From IMG/VR virus record IMGVR_UViG_2711768048_000001: 24,179 nt of DNA; one strand, written 5' to 3'. Each line of letters begins with the position of its first letter. The stretch's first letter is position 1. This stretch comes from a virus. Taxonomy: Duplodnaviria > Heunggongvirae > Uroviricota > Caudoviricetes. Both the position numbers and the translations under genes were made by a program. Of this stretch, positions 7,513-9,756 are shown piece after piece. The notes beneath the pieces are model-generated. The model was given only the letters and a program-made list of their open reading frames with translations. It did no database searches and was not told the origin of the DNA.

Positions 7513-9345
7513 CTACCAAAATCGGGTATAGCCAACATCGTGATTTATATCAATGCCACTGGAGCGTGTTTCCGTAACCCGCATACCTGGTGGCATATTT
7601 ATAAATGATACCTTGATCTCACCATCAACTTTTGGCGCGGTAGCTTTATTAATCATGAAGGGATTCGAGCCTGTGGCATCGGAGGCGTTGTTTGCCTGAG
7701 CCGGATCCACCGCCGGATAAGGAGTGTATCCCCGTGCCGGTATTCCCGTCCCATAAGCATCATAAGCACCCGCGCCCCACTGCGCAGAGTTAATGGCATC
7801 GACCGTGTCACCGGAACTGTCGGTAAACCACTCAATAATTGGCTTCAGCTTGTCCCACATATCCTGAAACCACTTAACAACCGGCCCCCAGTTATTGATC
7901 ACCATCCCCAGCGGCGACCAGGCAAAAACTTTCTTAAGGAGTTCCCAGCCAGCCTCAAAATAAGGACCAATGGTTTCCCAGAGCTTCTTGAAATAAGGTC
8001 CGACAACATCCCAGTTAGTGATAATTAATCCCGCAGCCAGGGCTATCGCCGTCGCAATCATGCCAATCGGCGTCATCGACATGATCCTGCTGACAATGCT
8101 GATGGCACTGCCCACGCCCATCAATCCCAGTTTCAGAATCGCAAGACCGGCAGCAAGCCCGACGACGCCGCGAATAACCCGGGGATTTTCATCCGCAAAC
8201 TTCGTGAATTTTTCCCCCAACTCCCCCAGCCATTGCGTGATATTTTTGGCGTCACCAGAAAATGCGCCGCCAATAGCCGCAAGGCCGTTAGTTGCGGTCC
8301 CCGTCATTGCCTCCCACAGGTTGGACAGCGTACCAAGCTGTGCCTGAACACGTTTATTCAGGCTGGCCTGTTTATTCATCTTTTGCTGGATCTGATCGTA
8401 ACCATCCTTTCCTTTATCGATCAGCGCATTGACCACCTGAAGGGTTTCGGCATCATCACCAAATATTGCCTTAAGTACACCTGTTCGCTTAACGTCGGTA
8501 AGTTTTCGCAGCTTTGCCAGTTGCTTAAACATGTTATCAAGACCGCCAAAACTTCCTTTGCCGTCAGTAAAATCGAGCTGTACCCCGAGTTTCTGACGGG
8601 CCATAACTTTATTGACGTCCCTGATTTTCTTAACGCTTAATCCGGACTGAATAACTTTTCGCAGGGCATTACCTGCCGACTCCCCGTTCATCCCCATCTG
8701 ATCCATCATGACGCTGATGGGGGCAAGGCTCTGTGCAGCCTGAAGACCGTCCTTGTTCACCATCTTCAGAACAGAACTGGTTTTAGTGAAGAAGGACAAC
8801 ATGTTGGTATCGTCAACGCCCAGATAAAACGCCTTCTGGATAGTGTCGAACAGCCCCATCATGTCTTCTGACGCCGTTCCGGTAGCATCCTGCATCTTTG
8901 CAGCAAACTCAGCAGCCGCTTCCGGTGTTTTTTTCAGTTGTACCGCAAGATAAGCTGTCGCTTTACCCACACCACCCAGAATGTTTTCTGCCGGGATCCC
9001 CTGACGCACCAGCATCTGCATCATGTTCTGGAAATCAGCCGTTGTACCGGGTAGCTGGTTACCCAGGCCAATAGCCAGTTTATTGATGTCCTGAAAGCTC
9101 TTTCCAACCTCGCCGTTCGCATCCATCATGGCGACTTTCAGCCCGGTAGCGGCGTTTTCCTGATCGGCATAAGATTTCAGGGAAAGCGTCAGCCCCGCTG
9201 CCAGTCCTCCACCAAGCGCCAGCCCACCCTGTGACGCTTCTTCCGCCTGGCGTTTAAATCCCCGGATTTTCTTTTGCATTTTCGACAGCGCGGGAGAAAG
9301 CCTGTCGACACCGGTGATCAACGCCTTAAGCTCAAATTCAGCCAT
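7513..9345 (-). CDS. Tail tape measure protein
   Basis: 610 aa, Ala/Gly/Lys-rich with predicted helical N-terminus and a hydrophobic central segment; sits immediately after the frameshifted chaperone pair. Confidence 0.8.
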   Translation of the reverse strand: MAEFELKALITGVDRLSPALSKMQKKIRGFKRQAEEASQGGLALGGGLAAGLTLSLKSYADQENAATGLKVAMMDANGEVGKSFQDINKLAIGLGNQLPGTTADFQNMMQMLVRQGIPAENILGGVGKATAYLAVQLKKTPEAAAEFAAKMQDATGTASEDMMGLFDTIQKAFYLGVDDTNMLSFFTKTSSVLKMVNKDGLQAAQSLAPISVMMDQMGMNGESAGNALRKVIQSGLSVKKIRDVNKVMARQKLGVQLDFTDGKGSFGGLDNMFKQLAKLRKLTDVKRTGVLKAIFGDDAETLQVVNALIDKGKDGYDQIQQKMNKQASLNKRVQAQLGTLSNLWEAMTGTATNGLAAIGGAFSGDAKNITQWLGELGEKFTKFADENPRVIRGVVGLAAGLAILKLGLMGVGSAISIVSRIMSMTPIGMIATAIALAAGLIITNWDVVGPYFKKLWETIGPYFEAGWELLKKVFAWSPLGMVINNWGPVVKWFQDMWDKLKPIIEWFTDSSGDTVDAINSAQWGAGAYDAYGTGIPARGYTPYPAVDPAQANNASDATGSNPFMINKATAPKVDGEIKVSFINMPPGMRVTETRSSGIDINHDVGYTRFW

Positions 9346-9520
9346 GTGTGCGTTTCTCCTGCTCTATCCTGTTTGCCTGACTGACCAGCAAGGGAATTTC
9401 ACTGATCGGCATATTCAGCAATTCGAAGGGATTAATGCGCCAGTAGCTGGCGCAGTCAAAGAAGCGATCAGTGAGGTATTCAGCCGTCAGGCCTGGAGGA
9501 AAAAACCAGCCACAAGCCAC
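9338..9520 (-). CDS. -1 frame extension of the tail assembly chaperone (GT-like frameshift product, C-terminal part)
   Basis: This ORF overlaps the 3' end of the chaperone ORF in the -1 frame and ends 4 nt inside the tape-measure start. The slippery heptamer lies in the overlap. Confidence 0.6.
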   Translation of the reverse strand: MACGWFFPPGLTAEYLTDRFFDCASYWRINPFELLNMPISEIPLLVSQANRIEQEKRTHG

Positions 9521-9756
9521 GCCGCTGCATTCAGGTCTGCCGGAGACATCTGGTCGACAGAGCTTTGCGGCACTTTCGCCAGCCGCACAATGTATTTCGA
9601 CACCACATGCGCCAGAAGTCTGACGGACTCATCCTGATTCATCTGGTAGGGATACCCCAGCTCGCGGACATCTTTCCCGGTGGGCTCATCAAACTCCAGT
9701 ACGGAGAGTGTCTCGCCATGAGCGGTAATCGGTTTCTTTAACTCAAGCTCTTTCAT
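9487..9756 (-). CDS. Tail assembly chaperone (Mu gp41 / lambda G analogue)
   Basis: 89 aa between the tail tube and tape-measure genes; carries the slippery site near its 3' end. Confidence 0.65.
   Translation of the reverse strand: MKELELKKPITAHGETLSVLEFDEPTGKDVRELGYPYQMNQDESVRLLAHVVSKYIVRLAKVPQSSVDQMSPADLNAAAWLVAGFFLQA
9499..9505 (-). other. Putative -1 programmed frameshift slippery heptamer T_TTT_TTC
   Basis: Minus strand reads …GCT GGT TTT TTC CTC CAG GCC TGA in frame 0; after a -1 slip it continues …FFPPGLTAEYL… into ORF 9338..9520. Confidence 0.55.

What the first reader, a model, noticed from the sequence alone, without database searches (positions are those of the whole stretch)
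9338..9756. Conserved -1 programmed frameshift (T_TTT_TTC) in the tail assembly chaperone
The two ORFs between the tube and tape-measure genes overlap in the 0 and -1 frames, and the overlap contains a canonical slippery heptamer (minus strand TTTTTTC, plus 9499..9505). The predicted fusion joins …AAWLVAGFF to PPGLTAEYL… and ends 4 nt inside the tape-measure start. This is the lambda G/GT-type recoding arrangement and explains an ORF that would otherwise look spurious.
Basis: partly seen in the sequence, partly recalled or inferred. Interest (0 to 1): 0.45.

Follow-up and report, generated by a model that had tools for sequence, protein, structure and literature searches.

The report
Tail chaperone frameshift, P2 E/E+E' type
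The prophage's small tail-assembly chaperone gene carries a strictly conserved T_TTT_TTC slip site that very probably lets some ribosomes shift back one base and make a longer second protein; this is an ordinary, long-known phage device that genome annotations here simply miss.

Summary
On the minus strand, an 89-aa tail assembly chaperone gene (9756..9487, Pfam PF10109) lies between the tube gene and the tape-measure gene. Its last codons read GGT TTT TTC, an in-phase X_XXY_YYZ heptamer at 9505..9499. The -1 frame then stays open for 53 codons, to a TGA (9340..9338) that overlaps the tape-measure ATG by 8 nt, not 4.

The heptamer alone is not rare. The weight comes from comparison:
- All 37 lineages below 90% nt identity, from Enterobacterales to Pseudomonas, Comamonas and Vampirovibrionales, keep NNT TTT TTY at the same aligned codon, although the preceding residue varies.
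- The T6 run is the only invariant nucleotide block.
- The -1 ORF evolves like a protein.
- In 25 of 37 lineages it has no start codon of its own.

A profile of the fused proteins aligns to phage P2 E+E' (hhalign E 2e-7), and the slip codons coincide with P2's annotated -1 site (T_TTT_TTG). Mu gp41 belongs to another Pfam family and, according to the literature, shifts by -2.

No conserved stimulatory RNA structure or SD-like element was found. The listed GenBank and RefSeq records do not annotate the recoding. Nothing here shows expression directly.

Verdict: a real but ordinary member of a known class. Its value is mainly for annotation.

The parts
9756..10112 (-). Tail tube gene (118 aa). 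Its TAA stop overlaps the chaperone ATG (TAATG).
   Evidence: PF10618 Tail_tube E 2.4e-33. phrog_185 tail tube E 1e-44.
9487..9756 (-). Short tail assembly chaperone (89 aa), the zero-frame product. It is the analogue of P2 gpE and of lambda gpG.
   Evidence: PF10109 Phage_TAC_7 E 1.9e-16. phrog_166 E 7e-24. RefSeq calls it 'phage tail assembly protein'.
9499..9505 (-). Slippery heptamer T_TTT_TTC in X_XXY_YYZ phase (codons GGT TTT TTC, residues G84 F85 F86).
   Evidence: NNT TTT TTY is invariant in 37 of 37 lineages. It aligns with the slip codons of P2.
9338..9499 (-). The -1 frame extension (53 codons, PPGLTAEYL...RTHG, then TGA at 9340..9338). It is the T-like / E'-like domain, reached by re-reading C9499.
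   Evidence: phrog_32181 E 2e-41. Codon-position variation is 3>1>2 in this frame. The motif A..FW..NP.EL......A.RI is conserved across 31 lineages. Similarity to P2 E' is weak.
9338..9756 (-). Span encoding the predicted 139-aa fusion protein, the analogue of P2 E+E' and of lambda gpGT.
   Evidence: The identical 139-aa sequence is encoded as a continuous ORF in natural or assembly 1-nt insertion variants.
7513..9345 (-). Tape measure protein gene (610 aa). Its ATG (9345..9343) lies inside the last codons of the -1 extension (ATGGCTGA). A likely Shine-Dalgarno AGGAG sits at 9360..9356.
   Evidence: PF10145 E 1e-26. phrog_28 and others. The ATGGCTGA or GTGGCTGA overlap is conserved in most relatives. 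The SD was read from the sequence and is inferred.

Best explanation
This is a programmed -1 ribosomal frameshift of the phage P2 E/E+E' type, the functional equivalent of lambda G/GT.

Most ribosomes translate the chaperone gene to its stop and make an 89-aa protein. A minority slip while tRNA-Phe occupies both the P site (TTT) and the A site (TTC) of T_TTT_TTC. Both tRNAs re-pair one base back on TTT_TTT, and the ribosome continues in the -1 frame for 53 codons. It terminates inside the first codons of the tape-measure gene. The result is a 139-aa protein with the same N-terminal 86 residues and a new C-terminal domain.

By analogy with lambda and P2, both proteins would coat the tape-measure protein, and the C-terminal domain of the long form would recruit the tube protein. 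Neither would end up in the virion.

What is shown here: the anatomy, the nucleotide-level selection on the heptamer, coding selection on the -1 ORF, the lack of an independent start in most relatives, and the positional homology with P2's site.

What is inferred: that the shift is ribosomal, its efficiency, and the assembly role.
For: Anatomy and family: the order is tube, PF10109 chaperone, -1 ORF, tape measure, and the heptamer is in phase.

Conservation in an anchor-independent sample. Loci were found through the tube protein, not through the chaperone.
- 49 of 53 loci were detected automatically.
- L137 was confirmed by eye, and L141 carries an in-phase T_TTT_TTG at a contig end.
- The two exceptions are a truncated remnant without the gene (L131) and a symbiont MAG with a 1-nt deletion beside the run (L130).

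Selection on the nucleotides:
- In 37 clusters below 90% nt identity the site is always NNT TTT TTY. The preceding codon is GGT, CGT, AAT, AGT, GTT or CAT, so the base is selected and not the residue. Phe codons elsewhere are 50% TTT.
- The six Ts are the only invariant nucleotides within +/-18 nt, and position 7 is always C or T.

Permissive window: across lineages it shrinks to 3 codons upstream and 2 downstream of the heptamer.

The -1 ORF:
- Variable columns by codon position are 26/16/41, 26/21/42 and 33/26/43 in three groups.
- 25 of 37 lineages have no ATG, GTG or TTG upstream of the slip in the -1 frame.

Two divergent chaperone/tape-measure cassettes sit behind an identical tube gene, and both keep the run at the same codon.

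Link to P2:
- P2's E+E' -1 site is annotated at GGT TTT TTG, and its extension also overlaps gene T by 8 nt.
- The fused-family profile against P2 E+E' gives probability 93.7% and E 2e-7 over 119 columns, with GFF aligned on GFL.

Motif competence: H_HH.U_UU.Y heptamers are among the most shift-prone in E. coli (PMC4066793).
Against: There are no expression data of any kind for this locus.

In a reporter without stimulators, U_UUU_UUC gave only 0.12% frameshifting, and 7.6% with the IS3 pseudoknot (PMC4066793 supplement).

I found no conserved downstream structure. The mean z-score of 37 folds was -0.45 and the alifold consensus was -4.8 kcal/mol with no supporting covariation. I also saw no consistent upstream SD-like element. 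The efficiency could therefore be very low, or depend on something I did not recognise.

The similarity of the -1 domain alone to P2 E' is weak: hhalign probability 56%, and PF06528 is hit by only 2 of 31 members at E 0.02 or worse.

The 1e-30 figure treats lineages as independent.
Confidence: 0.8

Rival explanations
1. Transcriptional slippage. RNA polymerase occasionally adds one extra U while copying the T6 run. Normally translated U7 transcripts would then yield exactly the same 139-aa protein.
For: The product sequence would be identical (GGU UUU UUU CCU gives G F F P). Half of the lineages carry T7 and one carries T8. Sharma et al. note that U7 runs are avoided in E. coli genes in all frames, possibly because of transcriptional slippage (PMC4066793).
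Against: The window's run is only six Ts, as it is in 19 of 37 lineages. By my own knowledge of the literature, efficient slippage by bacterial RNA polymerase needs longer runs (about 8-9 or more); this was not checked here. Selection keeps the minimal heptamer in the exact X_XXY_YYZ phase and a pyrimidine at position 7, which matters for tRNA re-pairing and not for the polymerase. P2's site is T6G and is annotated as translational.
Confidence: 0.1
2. Two independent genes. The 60-aa ORF (GTG 9520 to 9338) would be translated from its own start codon.
For: A GTG exists at 9520. Some records annotate the ORF as a separate hypothetical protein (phage vB_EcoM-689R6; NCBI 60-aa entries).
Against: No SD-like sequence precedes the GTG (context). 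25 of 37 lineages have no ATG, GTG or TTG in that frame upstream of the slip site, and the first later start lies deep inside the conserved domain or is absent. The upstream -1 frame is closed as little as 3 codons before the heptamer.
Confidence: 0.03
3. Genomic heterogeneity rather than recoding. Slipped-strand indels at the G2T6 tract would create subpopulations whose chaperone gene is permanently fused, and the wild-type gene would make only the short form.
For: Seven contigs from separate samples carry a 1-nt insertion (GGGTTTTTT in four, T7 in three) that encodes the 139-aa protein directly. Two more were found in IMG/VR.
Against: These variants are rare. IMG/VR holds at least 120 wild-type copies against 0 T7 and 2 G3T6. 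At least one of them sits in an assembly riddled with other frame breaks (L146). The pattern does not explain why phase and the pyrimidine at position 7 are conserved, and a fused-only phage would lack the short form.
Confidence: 0.04
4. Chance ORF. The -1 ORF would be a non-coding accident in the spacer between two genes.
For: The single heptamer is only weakly improbable. RefSeq leaves the 141 nt unannotated.
Against: The ORF is open, of similar length (49-62 codons) and conserved at the protein level across relatives whose tube proteins are as little as 34% identical to the window's. Its codon-position pattern is that of a coding sequence, and it matches phrog_32181 at E 2e-41.
Confidence: 0.01

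Closest known systems
Phage P2 gpE / gpE+E' (-1 frameshift at T_TTT_TTG; Christie et al. 2002, as cited in PMC3091744; annotated in NC_001895)
   Same: - The N-terminal domain is in the same Pfam family, PF10109 (window E 1.9e-16, P2 E 1.4e-12).
- The gene sits in the same place, between the tube gene (P2 FII) and the tape-measure gene.
- The slip codons are the same, GGT TTT TTN, at the aligned G-F-[FL] motif.
- The products are of similar size: 89/139 aa here and 91/142 aa in P2.
- In both, the extension ends 8 nt inside the tape-measure gene.
- Neither has a stimulatory hairpin (PMC3091744).
   Different: - The last base is C here (C or T across this clade) and G in P2.
- Pairwise BLASTP is not significant (E 0.56).
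- The extension does not reach Pfam PF06528 (Phage_P2_GpE).
- The surrounding tail module is Mu/SfV-like, not P2-like.
Phage lambda gpG / gpGT (-1 frameshift at G_GGA_AAG; Levin et al. 1993, Xu et al. 2004/2013/2014, via PMC5009743)
   Same: The logic and the synteny are the same. Two chaperone forms share an N-terminus, and the long form is made by a low-level -1 shift just before the stop. The genes lie between the major tail gene and the tape-measure gene, and no RNA structure is required.
   Different: The heptamer is different. No sequence-family relation was detected: only PF10109 is hit, even at E up to 5. Lambda has a non-contractile tail. The roles of the two forms are known for lambda only.
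Phage Mu gp41 (Mup41) and its extension
   Same: The tail module is of the same type (sheath L, tube M, gp41, tape measure gp42), and records name the neighbours after Mu genes. Mu gp41 has a marginal PF10109 match (24.7 bits against a cut-off of 25).
   Different: Mu gp41 is 144 aa and belongs to PF23746. Its downstream ORF is in the +1 frame next to a GGGGG run and stops 14 nt before the tape-measure start. The literature reports a -2 shift. The Mu tube protein is only 18% identical to the window's.
SfV / SfI / SfII / SfIV, phiP27, ST64B, YeP1, EPP-1 and AH07 phages (unannotated orthologues)
   Same: SfV, SfI and SfII are 98.6-99.1% identical to this region. All of the listed phages have the in-phase T6[C/T] and a homologous -1 ORF.
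   Different: None of their records annotates the recoding. SfIV, phiP27 and ST64B carry the second cassette allele, with T_TTT_TTT, a chaperone of 107-111 aa and 21 zero-frame codons after the slip site.

Membership tests
Conserved tail-assembly-chaperone frameshift (lambda G/GT class, Xu et al. 2004) | Two overlapping ORFs lie between the major tail/tube gene and the tape-measure gene. | tested here: met
   Tube 9756..10112, ORFs 9487..9756 and 9338..9520, tape measure 7513..9345.
Conserved tail-assembly-chaperone frameshift (lambda G/GT class, Xu et al. 2004) | A slippery sequence in the correct phase lies inside the overlap and is conserved in relatives. | tested here: met
   T_TTT_TTC is in phase. 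37 of 37 lineages have NNT TTT TTY.
Conserved tail-assembly-chaperone frameshift (lambda G/GT class, Xu et al. 2004) | The downstream ORF has no translation start of its own and codes for protein. | tested here: met
   There is no start codon in 25 of 37 lineages. The codon-position pattern is 3>1>2. The window itself has a GTG without an SD.
Conserved tail-assembly-chaperone frameshift (lambda G/GT class, Xu et al. 2004) | Both products are made in a fixed low ratio, both are needed for tail assembly, and both are absent from virions. | not testable with these tools
   This needs protein detection and genetics. Reporter values for the bare heptamer are 0.12%.
P2 gpE / E+E' family | The N-terminal chaperone domain is PF10109 (Phage_TAC_7). 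| tested here: met
   E 1.9e-16, 60.3 bits against a cut-off of 25.
P2 gpE / E+E' family | A -1 slip occurs on GGT TTT TTN at the G-F-[FL] motif near the C-terminus. | tested here: met
   The P2 site is read. hhalign puts GFF on GFL.
P2 gpE / E+E' family | The C-terminal extension belongs to PF06528 (Phage_P2_GpE). | tested here: inconclusive
   The window protein gives no Pfam hit at E up to 5. Two of 31 relatives hit weakly, with best E 0.022. The profile of the extension alone against P2 E' gives probability 56% and E 1e-4. The full fused profile aligns through the extension.
Mu gp41 family | The Gp41_Mu domain (PF23746) is present. | tested here: not met
   Only PF10109 is found in the window protein. 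PF23746 is found in Mu gp41.
Mu gp41 family | The extension lies in the +1 frame and is reached by a -2 shift. | tested here: not met
   Here the extension is in the -1 frame, and the +1 frame closes after 16 codons. For Mu, and the literature.

The most novel reading that the evidence does not exclude
The clade may use a frameshift stimulator of an unrecognised kind. Bare U_UUU_UUC, U_UUU_UUU and U_UUU_UUG give only 0.1-0.3% in an E. coli reporter. The homologous P2 site, however, is reported to work at 2-3 times the efficiency of lambda's site, whose G:GT ratio is about 30:1 (PMC5009743). Neither a conserved RNA structure nor an SD-like element exists in 37 lineages. The conserved nascent peptide (...D.N...W/M...GFF), the termination context a few codons downstream, or tRNA-Phe-specific effects could supply the missing stimulation.
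Probability: 0.2. Interest if true: 0.5.

Novelty: new member of a known kind. Interest (0 to 1): 0.2.

Why it matters
The main value is for annotation. The region is matched in 1063 of 5426 complete E. coli genomes, and a match covers at least 80% of it in 896. The same arrangement occurs in the Shigella serotype-converting phages SfV, SfI, SfII and SfIV.

The GenBank and RefSeq records I inspected list only the short protein. They either leave the 141 nt before the tape-measure gene empty or call a 60-aa 'hypothetical protein' there. Recognising the recoding gives these phages a complete tail-assembly gene set.

The T6Y rule at the G-F-F motif is simple and could be applied automatically across PF10109 genes.

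The comparison also yields a clean natural data set: 37 lineages, one invariant heptamer and no RNA structure. It could be used to ask what sets frameshift efficiency at U-rich sites.

It does not change how tail assembly or recoding is understood.

Tried and rejected
Downstream stimulatory structure:
- Folding 60-100 nt after the heptamer gave nothing at the canonical 5-9 nt spacing (z 0.13 for the first 66 nt).
- A stable hairpin, UGCGCCAGCUACUGGCGCA (window 9454..9436), lies 44 nt downstream. It looked conserved in three sequences.
- It is broken in L099, L101 and L112 and shows no supporting covariation in 12 sequences. I rejected it as a by-product of the codons for C-A-S-Y-W-R.
- Folds of 37 lineages gave a mean z of -0.45.

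Upstream SD-like element: none is consistent across lineages.

Database and family searches that gave nothing useful:
- NCBIfam gave no hits for the short, long or -1 proteins.
- Solved structures gave nothing below E 0.8 for the fused-family profile.
- BLASTP of the fusion against P2 E+E' was not significant (E 0.56). Only the profile comparison was informative.

I did not pursue it.

Literature:
- Xu et al. 2004 and Christie et al. 2002 are not held in the library, so I could not check whether SfV was in their tables.
- Searches for SfV combined with frameshift found nothing relevant.
- Four searches failed on the term-length rule.

The 139-aa database proteins P0001, P0007 and P0116 looked like annotated fusions but come from noisy assemblies. 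The exact-match entries come from 1-nt insertion variants, not from annotated slippage.

The idea that the tract is a frequent phase-variation switch was rejected on frequency: at least 120 wild-type copies against 2 variants in IMG/VR.
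Full report
**What is in the window**

The region lies in the late operon of an SfV-like prophage, which has a Mu-type contractile tail and an HK97-type head, read on the minus strand.

- Identity to other records: 99.1% to Shigella phage SfI and 98.6% to SfV and SfII. The 501 nt around the site are 100% identical to a prophage of E. coli O157:H16 Santai.
- Gene order: sheath (11608..10112, 498 aa), tube (10112..9756, PF10618), an 89-aa protein (9756..9487, PF10109 Phage_TAC_7 'E, or 41 or 14', E 1.9e-16), then a 141-nt stretch, then the tape measure (9345..7513, PF10145).

**Check of the observation**

The zero frame ends GCT GGT TTT TTC CTC CAG GCC TGA. TTTTTTC (9505..9499) is therefore in the X_XXY_YYZ phase.

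The -1 frame is open from 41 codons upstream of the heptamer to TGA 9340..9338.

The -1 ORF ends inside ATGGCTGA, so it overlaps the tape-measure gene by 8 nt rather than 4.

The heptamer alone is not remarkable:
- It occurs 10 times in the window against 4.45 expected.
- In-phase heptamers of any kind occur at 0.26% of codons in the window's genes. That gives an 11% chance of one in the 46-codon permissive window, and 0.7% for T6N.

**Comparative evidence**

I collected relatives in three ways:
1. Phage records found by DNA similarity.
2. IMG/VR loci with an identical tube protein.
3. 53 loci from one-genome-per-species bacterial genomes, found through a tube-protein alignment. This last sample is not selected on the chaperone or its slip site.

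The tube proteins in the third set are 34-99% identical to the window's. The hosts run from Enterobacterales to Pseudomonas, Comamonas, Sutterella, Succinivibrio and Vampirovibrionales.

Of the 53 loci:
- 49 showed an in-phase T6N followed by a 49-62 codon -1 ORF.
- L137 was confirmed by eye.
- L141 has an in-phase T_TTT_TTG at a contig end.
- L131 is a truncated remnant without the gene.
- L130, from a symbiont MAG, has a 1-nt deletion beside the run.

After clustering at 90% nt identity, all 37 lineages read NNT TTT TTY.
- The preceding codon is GGT, CGT, AAT, AGT, GTT or CAT. The residue changes but its third base stays T.
- The first Phe codon is always TTT, although Phe codons elsewhere in these loci are 50% TTT.
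- Given the protein sequence and codon usage, the joint probability is about 1e-30 if lineages are treated as independent, which overstates it.
- The six Ts are the only invariant nucleotides within 18 nt on either side. Position 7 is C in 19 lineages and T in 18.

Across lineages the -1 frame closes as near as 3 codons upstream, and the zero frame stops as near as 2 codons downstream. The shift can therefore only happen at or next to the heptamer.

**The -1 ORF is a real coding sequence without its own start**

- Variable alignment columns fall 26/16/41, 26/21/42 and 33/26/43 on codon positions 1/2/3 of the -1 frame in three groups of relatives.
- The encoded domain keeps a motif (A..FW..NP.EL......A.RI) across 31 lineages and matches phrog_32181 at E 2e-41.
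- In 25 of 37 lineages there is no ATG, GTG or TTG in the -1 frame between the upstream stop and the slip site. The next possible start then lies inside the conserved domain or is absent.
- The window's own GTG at 9520 has no SD-like sequence before it.

**Two cassettes, one slip site**

Behind identical tube genes there are two very different alleles of chaperone, extension and tape measure.
- One is the window/SfV type: 89 aa, T_TTT_TTC, 3 zero-frame codons after the site.
- The other is the SfIV/phiP27/ST64B type: 107-111 aa, T_TTT_TTT, 21 codons after the site.
- Similarity between the two breaks at window 9719 and resumes at 6817. The chaperone and its tape-measure client are therefore exchanged as a unit.
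- Both alleles keep the run at the same aligned codon.

**Relation to known systems**

*P2.* Phage P2 gpE is in the same Pfam family. Its experimentally established -1 frameshift is annotated in NC_001895 at GGT TTT TTG (...VVGFL), and the E+E' extension overlaps gene T by 8 nt. A profile of 31 fused proteins aligns to P2 E+E' over 119 columns (probability 93.7%, E 2e-7), with G-F-F placed on G-F-L. The extension alone is only weakly similar to P2 E' (probability 56%; PF06528 hit by 2 of 31 members at E 0.02 or worse).

*Mu.* Mu gp41 belongs to a different Pfam family (PF23746). Its extension lies in the +1 frame beside a GGGGG run. The literature reports a -2 shift (PMC5009743; PMC2628397).

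*Lambda.* Lambda G/GT is the functional archetype but shows no detectable sequence relation.

**Stimulatory elements**

No structure with canonical spacing is predicted. Folds of 60 nt downstream in 37 lineages average z = -0.45. A 12-sequence consensus fold gives -4.8 kcal/mol with no supporting covariation. A hairpin 44 nt downstream (9454..9436) is a coding by-product, because it is broken in three lineages.

This matches what is reported for P2 and its relatives (PMC3091744).

It leaves a quantitative puzzle. Bare U_UUU_UUC gave 0.12% in an E. coli reporter, U7 gave 0.33% and U6G gave 0.118% (PMC4066793 supplement). P2's site, by contrast, is said to work at 2-3 times the efficiency of lambda's. 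The efficiency at this locus is unknown.

**Rivals**

- Transcriptional slippage would give the same protein and cannot be excluded from sequence alone. A six-T run, strict phase and a pyrimidine at position 7 all fit tRNA re-pairing better.
- Independent initiation and a chance ORF are contradicted.
- Rare 1-nt insertion variants (GGGTTTTTT or T7) encode the 139-aa protein directly. They explain why that exact sequence exists in NCBI under names such as 'mu-like prophage FluMu gp41 family protein'. They are about 2% or less of copies in IMG/VR.

**Verdict**

It is an ordinary member of the long-known tail-chaperone frameshift class, specifically of the P2 E/E+E' lineage, and it sits in a Mu/SfV-type tail module. 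None of the public records I inspected annotates the recoding. I could not check whether Xu et al. 2004 listed SfV. Interest is low, and the value lies in annotation.

Noticed in passing
window 6891..7421 (-): A 176-aa ORF with low G+C (0.32-0.36 against about 0.53 around it) and a hydrophobic N-terminus sits between the tape-measure gene and the DNA-circularisation gene. It matches phrog_5485 (unknown function, E 4e-108) and no Pfam family. The Santai prophage, which matches the 501 nt around the slip site exactly, has only a 60-nt gap at this position. It looks like an inserted accessory gene (a moron).
   Followed up: partly
window 9719 and 6817 (boundaries); L014, L090: The SfIV-type prophages are 97-98% identical to the window up to 37 nt into the chaperone gene. 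They are then unrelated until the start of the DNA-circularisation gene. The chaperone, its extension and the tape measure are therefore swapped as one cassette behind an identical tube gene.
   Followed up: partly
L145-L151, L272, L273 (chaperone gene, e.g. L146:1746-1771): Nine contigs carry a 1-nt insertion at the G2T6 tract. Six have GGGTTTTTT and three have T7. The insertion fuses the two frames into a continuous 139-aa ORF identical to the predicted frameshift product. At least one of them (L146) lies in an assembly with many other frame breaks, so some may be sequencing errors.
   Followed up: partly
L067:3357-3632: One IMG/VR contig reads GGTTTTCCCTCCAAG in place of GGTTTTTTCCTCCAGG. 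It is 1 nt shorter, which puts the extension in the +1 frame and destroys the heptamer. This is either a mutation or an assembly error.
   Followed up: no
L130:3590-3610: In a stinkbug-symbiont MAG (Candidatus Pantoea bathycoeliae) the base before the T-run is deleted, so the chaperone no longer reads into the run in phase. This probably reflects decay of the prophage in a reduced genome.
   Followed up: no
window 12525 (-), inside ORF 12328..12834: A second in-phase T_TTT_TTG heptamer lies in the middle of the tail-completion/Neck1-like gene (phrog_879). It is probably chance. I did not check its conservation or the frame downstream.
   Followed up: no
window 9436..9454 (-): A perfect 8-bp hairpin, UGCGCCAG-CUA-CUGGCGCA, lies 44 nt after the slip site. 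It is conserved in close relatives but broken in three lineages, and it encodes C-A-S-Y-W-R. I judged it a coding by-product.
   Followed up: yes
L086:3950-4117 (phage Mu): The ORF after Mu gp41 is in the +1 frame, begins near a GGGGG run and stops 14 nt before the tape-measure start. It contains a motif (...GPEWALSLPLSRFF...) that by eye resembles the extension domain of the window's family. This fits a homologous domain reached by a different shift.
   Followed up: no
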